IMG/VR virus record: IMGVR_UViG_3300020420_000721
Location: 22,040 to 86,039 of that record
DNA length: 64,000 nt
Source of the DNA: a virus
Direction: 5' to 3' (one strand)
Program-made: the position numbers and the translations under genes
Shown here: positions 57,345-62,704 of the stretch, in pieces
Layout of the letters: every line of letters starts with the position of its first letter
Position numbering within the stretch: the stretch's first letter is position 1
Notes under the pieces: model-generated
What the model was told of the DNA's origin: nothing
The model's input: the letters and a program-made list of their open reading frames with translations, nothing else
The model's database searches: none

Positions 57345-58178
57345 ATGTCAAACCCTTTACTAAAAGAGTATAGAAAACCAAGTGCCTATGTTGCACTGCC
57401 TTCTGATGGCAAGTGGTATTCAGAAAAACTGCGTTTAAGTGTTGATAATGAACTAGCTGTCTATCCTATGACTGCTAGAGATGAACTTATTATGAAAACT
57501 CCTGACGCTTTATTCAATGGTGAGGCAACCAGAGCTTTATTGCAGAGTTGTACACCAGATATACCAAATCCAGATGAAGTACCGGCTTGTGATCTTCCAG
57601 TTATCGTTGTCGCAATTAGACAAGCATCCTATGGCGATGAAATTGATTTTGACGTAACTTGCCCTTCATGTAAGCACGTTAACATGGTTAAGATCATGGC
57701 TAGTGGACTATTGGCTAACGCCAAAAAGAATACAGAAGATCCTGTAGTTAAAATATCAGGAGATTTTCGTGTTAAGGTTAGACCTTATAACGTAAAAGAC
57801 AGAACACTATTAGCGATTGAGCAAGTTAAACAGCAAAGAATGTTACAGGATATCGTTAAGCAAAGTGAAAAAGATGATGAGAAAAATGCAGAAAACTTTG
57901 GCAAAACATTTGTTGAAGTTGCTGATCTAACTGTAAAACTAATTGCCGGAGCAATCGAAAGTGTTGCTACACCGGACGGAGCAGAAATCGACAATCGAGA
58001 AAACATCCTAGAATGGCTTCAAAACATTACAAAAAAAGACTACGATCTTATTACAGCTAAGATGGAAAAGTTAAGCGATAGTGGCATTAGAAACGAACAC
58101 GACGCTAAATGCCAAGAATGTTCACATGAGTGGAAAACTAAAGTGGACATCGACGCCGCAAATTTTTTCGGAGGCTGA
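57345..58178 (+). CDS. Baseplate hub/tail assembly chaperone (gp26-like)
   Basis: LPSDG, PMTARDE, IRQASYG, CPSC and CQEC; ends NFFGG. Confidence 0.8.
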   Translation: MSNPLLKEYRKPSAYVALPSDGKWYSEKLRLSVDNELAVYPMTARDELIMKTPDALFNGEATRALLQSCTPDIPNPDEVPACDLPVIVVAIRQASYGDEIDFDVTCPSCKHVNMVKIMASGLLANAKKNTEDPVVKISGDFRVKVRPYNVKDRTLLAIEQVKQQRMLQDIVKQSEKDDEKNAENFGKTFVEVADLTVKLIAGAIESVATPDGAEIDNRENILEWLQNITKKDYDLITAKMEKLSDSGIRNEHDAKCQECSHEWKTKVDIDAANFFGG

Positions 58179-58408
58179 TAGCCGTCAGTCAGCCTGAAGA
58201 GATAACCAAGATCGTCCAACGATATGACAAGGATCGGGGCAGTGCAGAAGATTTATATTTAGATATTATCTTAAATGCTGGAGGTGCGATTAATTACCAG
58301 GAAATAATGACTATGCCTGTTGATGCAATCAACCGACTTGTTATACGTATGAATGAAAAAACTGAAAAACAGAATCAGGCTATGAAGGCCGCACAGCGAA
58401 AACGCTAA
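58160..58408 (+). CDS. gp51-like extension reached by -1 frameshift (not in the ORF track)
   Basis: The -1 frame is open from the slippery A_AAT_TTT_TTC to TAA at 58406-58408 and encodes ..GGAINYQEIMTMP..; no early ATG. Confidence 0.75.
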   Translation, partial: KFFRRLIAVSQPEEITKIVQRYDKDRGSAEDLYLDIILNAGGAINYQEIMTMPVDAINRLVIRMNEKTEKQNQAMKAAQRKR

Positions 58409-58437
58409 ACAATTTGAGCGAAGCTCAAGAAAAATTT

Positions 58438-58920
58438 TTAAGATTTATCCTCACCAGTAATTAGTTTATAATAATCTATAGGCCAAGAGTTATAGTAATC
58501 AGTAGTTTTTAACCACTTTCTTTTTTCAAGTATATCAGATTTTATTTGGATAAACACACAATCAGTAAAATTTTTTGCAAACGCACCAGAGCTCCTAGTA
58601 CTAGTAAAACATAATAAGTTAGGATGCTCTTTCATAATCTTTTCAGTAATTTTTTCTACACCAGATACATCATCTAAATCACCAAGCCACGCAATACCTA
58701 TTTCTTTATCTTTCGGATCAAACGTTAATAGTGATTCTTCAATATTATCTCTAGCATCTATAAATTGGATTTTGTCTGTTAGCCTTGCTTTACGTGCAAA
58801 AGGACATATGGGAAAGCCATCGATCTTTTTAGATTCAATAACTTCTTCTGTCCATTTTAAAAACTTTTCACTAAACTGGTTAAAATTCATTTGTCTTTCT
58901 ATTAAGGGGAGCGTACTCAT
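58438..58920 (-). CDS. Hypothetical protein with CPFA motif
   Basis: 160 aa; ICPFARKAR resembles DUF1415-like proteins. Confidence 0.6.
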   Translation of the reverse strand: MSTLPLIERQMNFNQFSEKFLKWTEEVIESKKIDGFPICPFARKARLTDKIQFIDARDNIEESLLTFDPKDKEIGIAWLGDLDDVSGVEKITEKIMKEHPNLLCFTSTRSSGAFAKNFTDCVFIQIKSDILEKRKWLKTTDYYNSWPIDYYKLITGEDKS

Positions 58921-59009
58921 TGTGGTTAAAACCTATATGTTGATCTCCGATCAACTCTTCTGCGTATTACTCCGTAATACTTGAAGCTTTTTATTATAAA
59001 GTATTTATT

Positions 59010-59330
59010 CGCTTTTCAAGAGCTTTCATTCACACTGAGCCTGATTTGGCTCAGTATGCGTATTTGGAGGAAATACTTTTCCGTCGCAATCACTCACCAT
59101 GCTATAGCATACCTTACGGTGGGTAGGTTGAGCTGTCACCCTTTATATGCCGTCTTTCAACGCAGGAGTACGTATAACCTAGCATCGATTATACTTCCAT
59201 ACGAGTTACCATTGTCAGTAGAGCTCGTTCACTTTTTTAGTCATTAGCACACCAGAGTCTGAACATAAGTCATATATGTCCTCAAGGTGAGTCGAGGTTC
59301 CTCGACCAAACGTTGCCTGCTTTGCCAGTA
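59010..59330 (-). ncRNA. Candidate large structured ncRNA or origin element
   Basis: No credible ORF, raised GC, at least five stems, a long-range helix and a pseudoknot candidate; strand inferred from the flanking operon. Confidence 0.6.
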
Positions 59331-59897
59331 TTAGTTGTTGAGAGTAGTATTTGTGGCTGAAGTATGTACTCCAGTCCTAGCTAACAATTCTAGTGTACTT
59401 ATATTATCGTACATAGGATTAGCGAAATCAGCCCAGAAACATAAAGTCCATGAGCCATGCACGTTAGACGTGTAATCCAAATACCTCACAATGTGAAATT
59501 TGTCTTTAATTGCCGTGGGGAATGCCAAATATATGCCTTTGCGATTAAACTTCATGAACAATAAATCTAAATCATATTCGTCATGTGCGTCTAATGTTTG
59601 CCCTAGCCATTCTTCTAATGTTGGTTGTGGTTTATTTTGTAATAGTTGATGGAATGGAAAGTCTGCGTAATTCTTACATTCACAGTTAAAATACTTCCAA
59701 TCGTCTGGCGGAATAATATCGCCTTTAAATGCCGTTATTTGATTTTCTGTTAGTTTTTCTTTTCTGAATACGTTAGATCCTCCTACGAAGGCTCCACTAT
59801 GTGGCACTCTTTCAAAGTTTGCTTTATACAAACTGGAAAGTATATCACATACTTCACGTTCAAATCCTTTGCCTTTGTTTTTGCTTTTGCTACCCAT
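59331..59897 (-). CDS. Holliday junction resolvase (PD-(D/E)XK, Hjc-like)
   Basis: KGKGFERE, RVPHSGA, GDI and ECKNY. Confidence 0.82.
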   Translation of the reverse strand: MGSKSKNKGKGFEREVCDILSSLYKANFERVPHSGAFVGGSNVFRKEKLTENQITAFKGDIIPPDDWKYFNCECKNYADFPFHQLLQNKPQPTLEEWLGQTLDAHDEYDLDLLFMKFNRKGIYLAFPTAIKDKFHIVRYLDYTSNVHGSWTLCFWADFANPMYDNISTLELLARTGVHTSATNTTLNN

Positions 59898-61672
59898 TAA
59901 GCGTCAATTGCCTCTATTTCTGTATTAAATGTTGTAAAGCCATTTTCTTTTGTAACCTGTAGTACTTCATTAACACGGCCTACTAATTCATCTCTGTGAG
60001 AAATTAATAGAATGTTTTTGTGTCTATCACGTTCCATTTTCTTAAGAACTCCTAAAGCACTTTCAACTCCTATACTATCCATACCACTATCAACAAGTTC
60101 ATCAATACATAGTAAGTTAATAGGATGATTCATACTTTCAAATACATCTCTAAATGCCCAACTTAATCCAAGTATAAGTCTGTTACGTTCACCTCTACTT
60201 AAATTATCAAAGTCAAGCTCTTGTCCTAACTGTATAATACTTACTGATAGATCTGACTGGAATGATACATCATGTGGAAGTCCAAGTCTAGTAATATAGT
60301 AATCTAATCTAGTATTCAAAAACTGTAAGTTCTGTTCAATAATACGTTTACGAATAAAAGAGTCTTTATTAGTTAGTAGTTTAAACAAAAAGTCCTGATG
60401 ATCTTTTAGTTCAGTAAGTCTATTAACTTCATCCCATTTAACTTCCTGAATACCAGTTGCCTTTAAGGATACAATTTGTTCTTCATAGGGATCTGTTTCT
60501 TCTTGCTGTCTAGATAATCTGTCCTGTAAATTGCTTAAACTGCTTTGATGCTCATATGCTTCTTGAGGAGTGTTATAGTGTGTTGTGGGTGCATTGCCAA
60601 GCTCTCCTAGCTCTGCAAGAGCATCTTTATAATCATTTATCATCTGAGTCTCAGATTCAAGATGTCTTACCGACTCTTGTACTGCTTCTGTCTTTTCCTC
60701 TACTATTTTATTATGTTGTTCATCATGAATATCTTGTCCACAAGCATAGCATTTGTGATCTATGGTTGCATCTAAATCCTTCTGTGCCTTATTTTTTCTT
60801 TTAGTTTCTCTTTCTATACTTGATGTAAGTCTAGCAATTTCACTAGTTAATGTTTCATGTTGTTGTCTTCTACTATTAAATTTTTCAAGTTCTACGTGGT
60901 TTTCTAATTCTTTTTCTACATCAACCTTCATTAATGCAAATATTTCTTTTTGTAATTCTTCTGTTTCAGACGTTTGTTTATCAAACCATAATTTTTGTCT
61001 ACGTTCAAGATCAGTAATACTTTTACCTATTTGTGCATTGGCTTCTTCTATAGCCTGCATTTTATAAGTTTCTTCCTGAATACCGTCTTTACTTTGTTTA
61101 ATTAATTCTTTTAATAAATCTGCTTTTTCAGATAGTTGAGTAATACCTAATAATTGTTCAATCAAATCACGTTGATCATTTTGTCTCATTGCTAGGAACG
61201 GATCAGTATATGTATTAAGTGCCACAATATGCTTAAACATTATGTGACTCATACCCAATACTTTTTCAATCTGTTGTTGGCTTAACTTTCCTTCACCTTG
61301 CATTTCATCAGTTGCACCATCTGCGGCATCAACGCCACCAACCATGAACTTAAAGTAATTAGGTTTACGTCCTCTTTCAATTCTATATTGTACATTATCT
61401 TTCTCAAAGTCAACAGTAACAACCATTTGTCTGTTGTTAGTTTTGTTAACTAGATTATCTTTTCTAATATTATACAACGCATTTCCATATAATGCAAACG
61501 ATAATGCATTAATAATTGTTGTTTTACCTGTACCATTACGTGAACCATCTCCACCCAAGTCAATGTTATTACCTAGTACAAGTGTTAATCCACTTTTGTC
61601 AAAGTGTACAGCCTGTGTGACATTACCCACACTCATGAAATTCTTTACGGTGATATTTCTTAGTTTTAGCAT
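59897..61672 (-). CDS. Rad50/SbcC-like ATPase (T4 gp46-like)
   Basis: NFMSVG, NGTGKT, CYACGQ hook, LSRGE, IDE and ISH. Confidence 0.93.
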   Translation of the reverse strand: MLKLRNITVKNFMSVGNVTQAVHFDKSGLTLVLGNNIDLGGDGSRNGTGKTTIINALSFALYGNALYNIRKDNLVNKTNNRQMVVTVDFEKDNVQYRIERGRKPNYFKFMVGGVDAADGATDEMQGEGKLSQQQIEKVLGMSHIMFKHIVALNTYTDPFLAMRQNDQRDLIEQLLGITQLSEKADLLKELIKQSKDGIQEETYKMQAIEEANAQIGKSITDLERRQKLWFDKQTSETEELQKEIFALMKVDVEKELENHVELEKFNSRRQQHETLTSEIARLTSSIERETKRKNKAQKDLDATIDHKCYACGQDIHDEQHNKIVEEKTEAVQESVRHLESETQMINDYKDALAELGELGNAPTTHYNTPQEAYEHQSSLSNLQDRLSRQQEETDPYEEQIVSLKATGIQEVKWDEVNRLTELKDHQDFLFKLLTNKDSFIRKRIIEQNLQFLNTRLDYYITRLGLPHDVSFQSDLSVSIIQLGQELDFDNLSRGERNRLILGLSWAFRDVFESMNHPINLLCIDELVDSGMDSIGVESALGVLKKMERDRHKNILLISHRDELVGRVNEVLQVTKENGFTTFNTEIEAIDA

Positions 61673-62704
61673 TTATTTAGATAGCCCATTATAGATTTCT
61701 ATTAACATTTCATTTTTCATTACATCACTTTCAATGTTACCTAATTGACTTAGAACAATTTGATCTACATTTTCTATTTCAATTTCTCCTTGACCTGCTG
61801 ACCAATCCTGTGCGTGTTCTTCTTTCTTACTTGGAATTAAAGCAATCTCTCTTAAATTATATTGTTGAGAAAATGTTTCTTTAATATAGTTTGCTTCTTC
61901 ATAAGTAACATTTACATCAAGTGTAACTCTACAATTTGTTTTGTTCTGTAATATTTTTTCAGGTTCATCAATAAGTTTACTGAGAGGAACTGTTCTATAT
62001 GTAGGAGCATCTGGCCACTTTTCATATTCTATAGTGCCATCCCATTTCATAAACATTATACCACGATCATCGTCCCAAGCATCTGCGTAATTGTGTGGGA
62101 AACAATTTCCTGGATATATTATATTGTTACGTTTCTGTCTTTTATGAAAATGTCCACTGAATACTTTTTCAAAGTTTTTAAAGTCTTCGTCTTTTGCACC
62201 ATGTCCATGATCAGGCATTTGTACCATTGCATTCATAAAGAAGTTTGGTAATTCAAAATGTCCAAAGACATATTTTACATTTTTTATTTTAGATAATTTT
62301 TTATGTTCGTCTTCAACTAACCATGGGATCAATGCAATTCCATCTTCTATAAAGAAGCCATCATTGATTACTTTTATCTTAGGATATAAATGAGCCATTG
62401 GAATACTATGAATTTCACGTTTTTCTCTGTAGTATAAATCGTGATTACCCATGATCATATAAGTTTCATCAAAGGCGTCATTCAAAAATCCTAAACAGCT
62501 CGTAGTGTAGTTTAAAGTTGATACGTTAATTGTGGCTCTGTTATGATGCCAGTCACCCATAAATATACATTTACGGATACCACGTGCTTGAGCACGTTCT
62601 ATCATCCATTTTATAAAGTCTTCACAATCTGCATTATGAAGTCGCGAGTTGCTTTTCATACCGAAATGGATATCGGTAAAAACAACGATGTCATCAAAGA
62701 ACAA
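61673..62704 (-). CDS. Mre11/SbcD-like nuclease (T4 gp47-like)
   Basis: DIHFG, GDWHH, GNHD, GHFE and SGHFH. Confidence 0.93.
   Translation of the reverse strand: MFFDDIVVFTDIHFGMKSNSRLHNADCEDFIKWMIERAQARGIRKCIFMGDWHHNRATINVSTLNYTTSCLGFLNDAFDETYMIMGNHDLYYREKREIHSIPMAHLYPKIKVINDGFFIEDGIALIPWLVEDEHKKLSKIKNVKYVFGHFELPNFFMNAMVQMPDHGHGAKDEDFKNFEKVFSGHFHKRQKRNNIIYPGNCFPHNYADAWDDDRGIMFMKWDGTIEYEKWPDAPTYRTVPLSKLIDEPEKILQNKTNCRVTLDVNVTYEEANYIKETFSQQYNLREIALIPSKKEEHAQDWSAGQGEIEIENVDQIVLSQLGNIESDVMKNEMLIEIYNGLSK

What the first reader, a model, noticed from the sequence alone, without database searches (positions are those of the whole stretch)
59010..59330. Unannotated ~330-nt highly structured element after the resolvase: candidate large phage ncRNA or replication-primer RNA
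Seen: this is the longest ORF-free gap in a tightly packed genome, and it is visibly more GC-rich than the flanks. It contains stems GTCGAG/CTCGAC (59291-59306), ACGAG/CTCGT (59201-59228), GTATAA/TTATAC (59172-59194), GTATTT/AAATAC (59060-59076) and ACTGAGCC/GGCTCAGT (59034-59055). A perfect 7-bp long-range pair ACTCACC (59092-59098)/GGTGAGT (59286-59292) closes about 190 nt. Loop bases TAGCAT (59180-59185) are complementary to ATGCTA (59099-59104), a pseudoknot candidate. I do not recognise tRNA, tmRNA, RNase P or group I/II intron hallmarks. Inference: a multi-domain RNA at the end of the gp55-47-46-resolvase operon, possibly a ribozyme, RNP scaffold or R-loop primer for replication, perhaps working with the mini-DnaE.
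Basis: partly seen in the sequence, partly recalled or inferred. Interest (0 to 1): 0.85.

Follow-up and report, generated by a model that had tools for sequence, protein, structure and literature searches.

The report
Knotted twin-box RNA of giant phages
The gene-free gap behind a small DNA-cutting enzyme gene of this uncultured marine T4-like phage encodes a real, intricately folded RNA of about 310 bases with two knots; many related phages keep it and its job is unknown.

Summary
Window 59012-59320 encodes, on the MINUS strand (the strand of the flanking genes), a ~310-nt structured RNA directly 3' of a PDDEXK_15 nuclease gene. Relatives keep about 14 helices and two pseudoknots through compensatory changes. 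Type A: 77 pairs, 93.2% paired, 28 compensatory. Type B: 76 pairs, 93.6%, 43 compensatory.

Its 7-bp long-range pair is not conserved.

Forty-seven of 80 loci fetched with the nuclease carry the RNA, as do 113 of 120 fetched with an RNA motif. In 66 of those 113 the upstream nuclease is an unrelated GIY-YIG fold.

A 6-9-nt word occurs twice in each RNA and differs between phages.

The window matches no Rfam family. Sister RNAs that share its 3' core carry Rfam's Polynucleobacter-1 (RF01718) as their 5' domain.

Seawater metatranscriptome contigs run from the nuclease gene into the RNA.

Function is unknown. My best guess is a folded RNA made from the operon's 3' end. This scan had already reported the family on other DNA as the "twin-box" jumbo-phage RNA.

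The parts
59012..59320 (-). The whole structured RNA, from helix P1 through box 2. A 10-nt leader (59321-59330) follows the nuclease stop codon.
   Evidence: Model R1 hit at 59198-59320(-), 90.7 bits. nhmmer hit at 155 bits. Model R2 hit at 58988-59169(-). Single copy in the 86-kb record.
59290..59307 (-). P2 hairpin (59301-59307 with 59290-59296).
   Evidence: 7 pairs, 100% paired in A2, A4 and A6. G-U pairs occur on this strand only.
59246..59317 (-). P1 (59315-59317 with 59246-59248), which closes the P2/P3 subdomain.
   Evidence: Compensatory in type B and in A6. Weak in type A (84.8%).
59250..59289 (-). P3 (59286-59289 with 59250-59253), which encloses hairpin P3a (59275-59281 with 59261-59267).
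   Evidence: In 27 of 29 distinct sequences the two 4-mers are complementary, in 8 different word pairs. P3a is compensatory.
59201..59228 (-). P5 hairpin: P5a (59224-59228 with 59201-59205) and P5b (59218-59220 with 59207-59209), with a conserved GCUCU...AAC internal loop.
   Evidence: 100% paired; 6 of 8 pairs compensatory in A2, 5 of 7 in A6.
59172..59194 (-). P6 hairpin (59189-59194 with 59172-59177). Its loop carries the 5' strand of PK1.
   Evidence: Type B: 12 pairs, 94.2% paired, 7 compensatory. The inner part is badly aligned in type A.
59099..59185 (-). Pseudoknot PK1: loop 59180-59185 pairs with 59099-59104.
   Evidence: 7-pair helix. 100% paired with 5 compensatory pairs in A2. 97.8% paired with 6 compensatory pairs in A4.
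59127..59161 (-). Pseudoknot PK2: 59157-59161 (GUUGA, just 3' of P6) pairs with 59127-59131 (UCAAC, in the P8 loop).
   Evidence: 5 pairs, 94.2% paired in 28 distinct sequences, 4 compensatory; slid controls 5.8-54%.
59111..59141 (-). P8 (59138-59141 with 59121-59124) and P9 (59118-59120 with 59111-59113, GUAA loop).
   Evidence: In A2, P8 has 3 compensatory pairs and P9 has 3.
59076..59081 (-). Box 1 (GAAAAG on the minus strand), 16 nt after a conserved GUG at 59095-59097.
59031..59058 (-). P10, the 3' hairpin of 11 bp (59048-59058 with 59031-59041).
59012..59017 (-). Box 2 (GAAAAG again), 16 nt after the GUG that ends P10.
59331..59897 (-). Upstream gene: a 188-aa PD-(D/E)XK nuclease.
   Evidence: Pfam PDDEXK_15, 1.7e-23. 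PHROG 244, 'RusA-like Holliday junction resolvase'.
59897..62704 (-). gp46-like (59897-61672) and gp47-like (61673-62704) recombination nuclease genes, same strand.
   Evidence: Pfam AAA_23/SMC_N and Metallophos.
58438..58920 (-). Downstream 160-aa gene with no family. It is not part of the RNA and is present only in type A relatives.
   Evidence: No Pfam or PHROG hit. Homologues at 38-65% identity in 24 loci.
59002..59009 (-). AATAAATA just 3' of box 2, conserved as ATAAATA in type A. It resembles the T4 late promoter TATAAATA; that consensus is recalled, not tested.
   Evidence: Alignment; inference only.

Best explanation
SHOWN.
- The gap encodes a ~310-nt non-coding RNA on the minus strand.
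- It folds into a 5' domain (P1-P5) and a doubly pseudoknotted 3' core (P6-P10, PK1, PK2).
- It sits at the 3' end of the gp47-gp46-small-nuclease gene block.
- It belongs to a large modular family of uncultured T4-like jumbo phages. A conserved 3' core is joined to interchangeable 5' domains, one of which is Rfam's Polynucleobacter-1.
- The core carries the module [helix]-RUG-about 12 nt-box twice. The two 6-9-nt boxes are identical within a phage and differ between phages.

INFERRED, about 0.3 on its own.
- The RNA is made by read-through from the nuclease operon. In many relatives there is no room for a promoter of its own.
- It acts as a folded molecule, either a scaffold for a protein complex or an 'ornate' RNA.
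- It acts during the replication/recombination phase.
- The two boxes are two equivalent single-stranded sites for one lineage-specific partner.
For: Structure.
- MAFFT-only alignments give 93.2% and 93.6% of cells paired, with 28 and 43 compensatory pairs. Slid controls give 30-47%.
- 5' half on the model-fitted alignment: 98.2% paired, 17 of 21 pairs compensatory.
- PK2.

Strand.
- Many G-U pairs (for example 9 of 11 at two P2 positions) would be C-A mismatches on the plus strand.

Spread.
- 47 of 80 nuclease-anchored loci carry it.
- 113 of 120 motif-anchored loci carry it.

Position.
- It always lies 3' of a same-strand ORF, mostly within 60 nt.
- The upstream ORF is GIY-YIG in 66 loci and PDDEXK_15 in 6. 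A gp46 homologue lies upstream in 43 of 45 GIY-YIG loci with room.
- Downstream genes vary and are mostly on the opposite strand.

Twin boxes.
- A shared word of 7 nt or more occurs in 105 of 118 distinct RNAs, against 281 of 2340 mismatched pairings. There are 38 different words.

Transcription.
- Contigs of 4 seawater RNA libraries (about 98% identical) run unbroken from the gp46/nuclease genes into the RNA.

Not coding.
- 95 of 116 gap runs in A2 are not multiples of 3. The longest stop-free run in the sense strand varies between 30 and 88 codons.
Against: - No function was tested.
- Contig depth over the RNA (4.8-7) is no higher than over the genes, so a stable abundant RNA species is not shown.
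- All four libraries' contigs stop at 59149-59152, inside the RNA, and nothing covers 58400-59148. A full-length transcript is therefore not shown.
- RNA libraries can hold DNA.
- No partner for the boxes was found. There is none within the RNA or within 0.9 kb. Two large phage genomes show no excess of the complement.
- The window's box is only 6 nt, which alone could be chance.
- The structures counted were derived from one member of each alignment, and related sequences inflate the shuffle tests.
Confidence: 0.55

Rival explanations
1. It is a cis-acting 3'-UTR element. The fold ends, insulates or stabilises the gp47-gp46-nuclease transcript where it meets genes transcribed from the opposite strand, and has no role as a free RNA.
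For: - It always lies at the 3' end of a same-strand ORF.
- It is mostly followed by opposite-strand genes: DUF6614 in 29 loci, T4_baseplate in 28, another family in 11.
- RNA contigs join it to the coding region at equal depth.
Against: - About 14 helices, two pseudoknots and conserved unpaired nucleotides are far more than 3'-end protection needs.
- No terminator-like site lies in the gap.
- The twin boxes are left unexplained.
- In the window a same-strand gene follows.
Confidence: 0.2
2. It is a partner of the adjacent small nuclease: a guide, a substrate decoy or an antitoxin-like inhibitor. The twin boxes would give two-fold symmetric recognition.
For: - The upstream neighbour is a small nuclease in all 47 loci of the first set, and in 72 of the 96 motif-found loci that have a neighbour within 250 nt.
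- The GIY-YIG proteins are about 142 aa, essentially the catalytic domain alone.
- The boxes vary the way guide segments do.
Against: - Two unrelated nuclease folds go with the same RNA core, so a specific protein-RNA fit is unlikely.
- About 20 loci have another ORF between the nuclease and the RNA, or in place of the nuclease.
- Cultured phages with PDDEXK_15 homologues (PA5oct, SCTP-2, Phosso) have no gap and no hit.
- No target was found for the boxes.
Confidence: 0.12
3. It is a ribozyme or programmed processing site. The RNA is cut between P7 and P8, giving the mRNA its 3' end and releasing a small RNA of about 140 nt (P8-P10 plus the boxes).
For: - Contigs of four RNA libraries listed under four study codes all end at 59149-59152, with no loose ends and nothing downstream. 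The tool itself calls this a weak hint.
- The size and the knotted core are typical of ribozymes (general knowledge).
Against: - Contig ends can come from strain branching or low depth (4.8-7).
- The four studies may be one campaign.
- No DNA run was laid for comparison.
- No known self-cleaving family matches.
- PK1 spans the supposed cut.
Confidence: 0.1
4. It is a replication-origin transcript, a structured primer or R-loop RNA.
For: - It lies beside recombination and replication genes.
- 11-nt-spaced repeats (CTAACAC x3 in L001 and L014) lie just upstream in some relatives.
Against: - The repeats are not conserved across types and are nearly absent in the window.
- Nothing tested bears on DNA synthesis.
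- Conservation is of RNA pairing, with G-U pairs, not of DNA motifs.
Confidence: 0.07
5. It is not an RNA gene. It is either a small protein-coding region or chance stems in a decayed gene.
For: The plus strand has an 88-aa TTG-start ORF at 58981-59247. Antisense stop-free runs reach 76-94 codons in some relatives.
Against: - That ORF has no Pfam hit.
- Run lengths vary from 35 to 94 codons.
- Indels are mostly not multiples of 3.
- There are dozens of compensatory pairs.
Confidence: 0.01

Closest known systems
Polynucleobacter-1 RNA (Rfam RF01718; Weinberg et al. 2010, PMC2864571. I saw only its table row: Burkholderiales and fresh water/estuary, RNA 'y', cis-regulatory 'y', switch '?')
   Same: In 21 fetched phage loci RF01718 (71-120 bits against a gathering score of 37) lies about 70-80 nt upstream of a 3' part. 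That 3' part has the same P8 motif, P10 hairpin and twin boxes as the window's RNA, and lies behind the same kind of small nuclease gene. An HMM and a covariance model built only from those 3' parts find the type B relatives strongly, and find the window weakly at the right place.
   Different: The window has no RF01718 match, even at E up to 10. Its 5' domain (P1-P5) is a different fold. The Rfam model covers 141 nt and none of the 3' core. No function is known for RF01718.
GOLLD (RF01998), ROOL (RF03087) and OLE: large 'ornate' RNAs, the first two often phage-borne (search listing only of 10.1101/2024.12.08.627333; the rest recalled)
   Same: A large, multi-helix, pseudoknotted non-coding RNA of unknown biochemical function, carried by phages and found by comparative genomics.
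   Different: No model match. It is smaller (about 310 nt). It has a fixed position behind a nuclease gene, and it has twin boxes. Whether it assembles into multimers was not tested.
Nuclease-adjacent guide RNAs (the omega RNAs of IscB/TnpB, formerly HEARO; recalled, not tested)
   Same: A structured RNA of a few hundred nt directly 3' of a small nuclease gene, with short segments that vary between lineages.
   Different: The nucleases here are PD-(D/E)XK or GIY-YIG, not RuvC. There is no transposon end. The variable word is 6-9 nt and occurs twice. No target was found.

Membership tests
Polynucleobacter-1 (RF01718) | Match to the Rfam covariance model at or above 37 bits | tested here: not met
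   No hit in the window at gathering score, nor at E up to 10 in 58700-59600. Positive controls: 21 sister loci score 71-120 bits.
Polynucleobacter-1 (RF01718) | Shares the 3' core that follows RF01718 in phage loci. This is my own criterion, not Rfam's. | tested here: inconclusive
   Direct: model R2, built from 17 RF01718-bearing RNAs, hits the window at 58988-59169(-) at full model length, but with only 15.6 bits and E 0.16 over 347 kb. nhmmer finds nothing in the window. Indirect: the same models hit type B at E 1e-14 to 1e-5, and type B aligns with the window's type A.
Twin-box knotted jumbo-phage RNA (this scan's working name; not in print as far as searches show) | Lies directly 3' of a small nuclease gene, on the same strand | tested here: met
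   The PDDEXK_15 stop is at 59331 and P1 starts at 59317.
Twin-box knotted jumbo-phage RNA (this scan's working name; not in print as far as searches show) | Two pseudoknots in the 3' core | tested here: met
   PK1 is 59180-59185 with 59099-59104. PK2 is 59157-59161 with 59127-59131.
Twin-box knotted jumbo-phage RNA (this scan's working name; not in print as far as searches show) | The same short word twice, each about 16 nt after an RUG that ends a helix | tested here: met
   GAAAAG at 59076-59081 and at 59012-59017, each 16 nt after a GUG. At 6 nt it is at the short end of the family's 5-9 nt range.
tRNA / tmRNA | ARAGORN detection | tested here: not met
   0 genes in the window.
GOLLD, ROOL, RNase P, group I/II introns, T-box, known self-cleaving ribozymes (all Rfam) | Covariance-model match | tested here: not met
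   for the window. for 18 relatives' loci, where the only family found was RF01718, in 2 of them.
Intrinsic terminator | G+C-rich hairpin followed by a run of T | tested here: not met
   The only terminator-like sites in 58300-59900 are at 58413-58429, outside the element.

The most novel reading that the evidence does not exclude
The conserved 3' core is a new functional RNA class whose two identical, fast-evolving boxes read a nucleic-acid target twice. One possibility is that it directs or restrains the neighbouring domain-only nuclease (PD-(D/E)XK or GIY-YIG) on a two-fold symmetric substrate such as a recombination junction. Another is that it is a new self-processing ribozyme that cuts at the P7/P8 boundary.
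Probability: 0.12. Interest if true: 0.9.

Novelty: new variant of a known kind. Interest (0 to 1): 0.7.

Why it matters
- Structured RNAs of this size and complexity are rare, and those solved so far have mostly turned out to be ribozymes, riboswitches or large assemblies.
- This one is kept by a large share of the related loci I fetched from uncultured giant T4-like phages of seawater and other sampled waters. It has a fixed place in the recombination gene block.
- The identity rule between its two boxes has no ready explanation.
- The work ties an orphan Rfam entry (Polynucleobacter-1, listed since 2010 with no function) to a much larger modular phage RNA. The Rfam model appears to cover only one optional 5' domain of it.
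- It also shows that the same RNA stays in place when the upstream nuclease is swapped between two unrelated folds.
- Both points narrow what the RNA can be doing and give concrete constructs for in vitro tests.

Tried and rejected
Ideas and searches that led nowhere.
- Leader or riboswitch of the downstream 160-aa gene: rejected, because that gene is absent behind the RNA in type B and most other relatives.
- A helix between the two box linkers, and a double kink-turn or C/D-box-like reading: complementarity appears in some sequences only, and I dropped it. In type E, RNAalifold pairs UCRGAU of box 1 with AUCU.GA before and in box 2, but those columns hardly vary, so nothing can be said.
- An intramolecular partner for the boxes: none.
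- A genome-wide partner: beyond the RNA gene's own two boxes there were 2 further hits in each of two large genomes, against 3 and 1 for the reversed control pattern.
- A passing resemblance of P8 to the T-box motif and to the 16S rRNA 3' end was recalled from memory. No Rfam support was found. It did lead me to PK2.
- GenBank phages: blastn with the window region and with a type B RNA found nothing. tblastn with the nuclease found at best 41% identity.
- One search used a mis-specified motif with one N too many. Its 56 hits are chance matches and were not used.
- RNA libraries: 22 of the 24 listed runs are on record as RNA (the other two are a guess) and all 24 hold 12-30% of the sampled words. 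Only X1-X4 were laid. The lack of cover on 58400-59148 is not evidence of absence.
- Papers: searches found no description of this RNA. Fremin et al. 2023 (PMC10690425, passages only) lists over 10,000 candidate viral RNAs in supplements that I could not open, and the family may be among them. One preprint from the listing could not be opened.
Full report
WHAT IS THERE.

The genes around the finding all lie on the minus strand:
- a gp47-like phosphoesterase (61673-62704);
- a gp46-like SMC/AAA ATPase (59897-61672);
- a 188-aa PD-(D/E)XK nuclease (59331-59897; Pfam PDDEXK_15 at 1.7e-23; PHROG 244, 'RusA-like Holliday junction resolvase');
- the 410-nt gap (58921-59330);
- a 160-aa gene with no family (58438-58920).

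A baseplate-hub gene converges from the plus strand (57345-58178).

The gap is the longest stretch of the window without an ORF of 90 aa or more. Its GC is 0.43, against 0.30-0.37 beside it. The record is an 86-kb fragment of an uncultured virus, estimated 23% complete.

IS IT MORE THAN CHANCE?

Energy alone says little: z is -2.6 on the minus strand and -2.7 on the plus strand. The comparative evidence is strong.

Using the nuclease protein as bait, 531 of 549 candidate IMG/VR stretches encode a relative, and the best 80 were kept. In 24 of these the same gene order recurs, with a gene-free gap of 488-815 nt. Those gaps are 70-76% identical between clades whose flanking 160-aa proteins are only about 40-65% identical.

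Iterated nhmmer converged on 47 of the 80 loci plus the window. The hit is always directly 3' of the nuclease gene on its strand.

RNAalifold on 11 close relatives gave 68 pairs, 29 with compensatory changes. On 13 more distant ones it gave 56 pairs, 29 compensatory.

I then wrote one structure for each group by position numbers and counted it on the MAFFT alignments, which were not fitted to any structure.
- Type A: 77 pairs, 93.2% of cells paired, 28 compensatory pairs. No shuffle in 500 reached four of the five measures; the count of further pair types was reached by 173 of 500. Partners slid by 1-3 columns gave 30-39% paired.
- Type B: 76 pairs, 93.6% paired, 43 compensatory. No shuffle in 500 reached any of the five measures. 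Slides gave 41-47%.

A covariance model of the 5' half (R1; 140 positions, 21 pairs) hits the window once, at 59198-59320(-), with 90.7 bits. On its fitted alignment 98.2% of cells pair and 17 of 21 pairs are compensatory.

Caveats: each structure was read from one member of its alignment, and related sequences inflate shuffle tests.

STRAND.

Frequent G-U pairs would be C-A mismatches on the plus strand. Examples are G-U in 9 of 11 sequences at two P2 positions and U-G in 10 of 11 at one P3a position. The RNA is therefore the minus strand, the same as the genes.

ANATOMY IN THE WINDOW (minus strand).
- 5' domain:
  - P1: 59315-17 with 59246-48.
  - P2: 59301-07 with 59290-96.
  - P3: 59286-89 with 59250-53. 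It encloses P3a, 59275-81 with 59261-67.
  - P5: 59224-28 with 59201-05, plus 59218-20 with 59207-09, with the conserved GCUCU...AAC loop.
- The P4 pseudoknotted hairpin of other type A members is missing here.
- 3' core:
  - P6: 59189-94 with 59172-77.
  - PK1: the P6 loop, 59180-85, with 59099-104.
  - PK2: 59157-61 with the P8 loop at 59127-31.
  - P8: 59138-41 with 59121-24.
  - P9: 59118-20 with 59111-13.
  - GUG, then box 1 at 59076-81.
  - P10: 59048-58 with 59031-41.
  - GUG, then box 2 at 59012-17.

PK1 is 100% paired in type A and 97.8% in type B, with 5 and 6 compensatory pairs of 7. PK2 is 94.2% paired in 28 distinct sequences, with 4 of 5 pairs compensatory and slid controls of 5.8-54%.

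The five local stems and the pseudoknot are right. Its 7-bp closing helix is not. Across 27 sequences it pairs no better than shuffles (70.6% against 69.3%). The local helix P3 changes in step: 27 of 29 distinct sequences are complementary, in 8 different word pairs, while the distal GUG/AUG stays put.

NOT CODING.

In A2, 95 of 116 gap runs are not multiples of three. Stop-free runs vary widely. The plus-strand 88-aa ORF has no family.

TWIN BOXES (a lead from earlier notes of this scan, tested here).

Each RNA carries the module [helix]-RUG-about 12 nt-box twice, once after PK1 and once after P10.
- In 118 distinct RNAs the two copies share a word of 7 nt or more in 105.
- When the first module of one RNA is compared with the second module of a random other, that happens in 281 of 2340 pairings.
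- There are 38 different words. The commonest pattern is RGAURAW, preceded by CUC at the first site and UCU at the second.
- Changes such as A to G at the first box position are mirrored in both copies.
- The window's word is GAAAAG.
- I found no complement inside the RNA or within 0.9 kb. Two phage genomes of 262 kb and 347 kb show no excess of the complement.

The rule of identity without complementarity remains unexplained.

CONTEXT BEYOND THE BAIT.

I scanned IMG/VR with a 19-nt motif from P8, which is blind to the neighbouring genes.

Upstream neighbour within 250 nt, same strand unless stated:
- a ~142-aa SegE-like GIY-YIG nuclease in 66 loci (Pfam 6e-36 to 6e-32 for 3 of 3 sampled);
- PDDEXK_15 in 6;
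- other ORFs in 24 (20 on the same strand, 4 on the opposite strand);
- none, or the contig end, in 17.

A gp46 homologue lies upstream on the same strand in 43 of the 45 GIY-YIG loci with 2.5 kb of room. This is therefore the same locus, with the nuclease swapped between two unrelated folds while the RNA stays.

Downstream genes are mostly on the opposite strand: DUF6614 in 29 loci, T4_baseplate in 28, another family in 11. That rules out a leader role for the window's 160-aa gene.

LINK TO A KNOWN FAMILY.

The window matches nothing in Rfam 15 at gathering score, or at E up to 10. Ten close loci match nothing at E up to 1.

Many motif-found RNAs matched my profile only over their 3' half. 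In these the 5' half is Rfam's Polynucleobacter-1 (RF01718):
- 2 of 8 loci;
- 19 of 20, at 71-120 bits against a gathering score of 37. In the twentieth locus the 5' part is cut off by the contig end.

An HMM built only from the parts 3' of RF01718 finds type B relatives (E 1e-13 to 1e-5) and three type A relatives (2e-4) at the right place, but not the window. A covariance model of the same parts (R2) finds type B at 3e-14 to 2e-5. It finds the window at 58988-59169(-) at full model length, but with only 15.6 bits and E 0.16.

So the family is modular. One 3' core is joined to at least four 5' domains:
- types A and B;
- the type D domain of L010, L012, L016 and L023;
- RF01718.

The window belongs through types A and B. 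The direct link to RF01718 carriers is weak.

The only paper in the library that names the motif gives it a single table row.

EXPRESSION.

All 24 listed seawater runs, 22 of them on record as RNA, hold 12-30% of the sampled words of 58400-59900. I laid four of them.
- Contigs about 98% identical cover 59149/59152 up to 59900 and beyond, joining the gp46 and nuclease genes to the 5' 190 nt of the RNA.
- All four stop within 4 nt of each other, just after P7, with no loose ends.
- Nothing covers 58400-59148.
- Depth over the RNA equals that over the genes.

This fits co-transcription. It hints weakly at a 3' end or cut at about 59150. These are contigs, the strand is unknown, DNA carry-over is possible, and no DNA run was compared.

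CULTURED RELATIVES.

The best GenBank phage homologues of the nuclease are PA5oct-like phages, Salicola SCTP-2 and Sinorhizobium Phosso, at 40-41% identity. They have no gap behind the gene and no R1 hit. No isolate with the RNA was found.

WHAT IT MOST LIKELY IS.

Shown: a real, single-copy, doubly pseudoknotted RNA gene of a large phage family, at the end of the recombination-nuclease gene block.

Inferred: it is made by read-through and acts as a folded RNA, with two equivalent boxes for one partner (about 0.3).

Rivals:
- a purely cis 3'-end element (0.2);
- a partner of the nuclease (0.12);
- a self-processing ribozyme (0.1);
- an origin primer (0.07);
- not an RNA at all (0.01).

EARLIER NOTES OF THIS SCAN.

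Searches show the family was already reported on other DNA as the 'twin-box' or 'knotted' jumbo-phage RNA. The word search returned 92 notes from at least 86 genomes, of which the eight listed describe this family. I took the box idea, the two-knot claim and the Polynucleobacter-1 lead from them and tested each here.

Noticed in passing
L138-L257 (e.g. L172:5472-5906, L156:4277-4705): At the same locus (gp46, small nuclease, RNA) the nuclease is a ~142-aa SegE-like GIY-YIG protein in 66 loci and PDDEXK_15 in 6. This is a swap between unrelated folds with the RNA kept.
   Followed up: partly
L140:288-423, L237:40-176 and 19 more loci: Rfam's 141-nt Polynucleobacter-1 model appears to cover only the 5' domain of a phage RNA of about 350 nt. 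The Rfam entry may need extending.
   Followed up: partly
window 59149-59152: Contigs of four seawater RNA libraries all end here, inside the RNA, just after hairpin P7. This could be a processing site or an assembly break.
   Followed up: no
L001:3547-3580, L014, L012:3535-3570: Three direct repeats at 11-nt spacing lie between the nuclease stop codon and the RNA (CTAACAC in L001 and L014, another word in L012 and L023). The window has only degenerate traces at 59321-59342.
   Followed up: no
window 58939-58980: Two small hairpins between the RNA and the 160-aa gene change in step in type A relatives (GTATTGC/GCAATAC against ATAAAGC/GCTTTAT). They probably belong to that gene's leader, and another note of this scan (e1-6114846) records them.
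   Followed up: no
window 58438-58920 (-): A 160-aa protein with no Pfam or PHROG family, conserved at 38-65% identity in 24 related loci.
   Followed up: no
L010, L012, L016, L019, L023 (about 230 nt after the nuclease stop): A fourth, unrelated 5' domain replaces P1-P4 in this clade, while P5 and the 3' core are kept.
   Followed up: no
L189:13067-13143: A freshwater-2 RNA (RF02980, 62.7 bits) lies on the same phage contig, 11 kb from the twin-box RNA.
   Followed up: no
L260:1486-2501 (Sinorhizobium phage Phosso): A gap of about 1 kb with no annotated gene lies upstream of, not behind, the resolvase homologue. I did not examine it.
   Followed up: no
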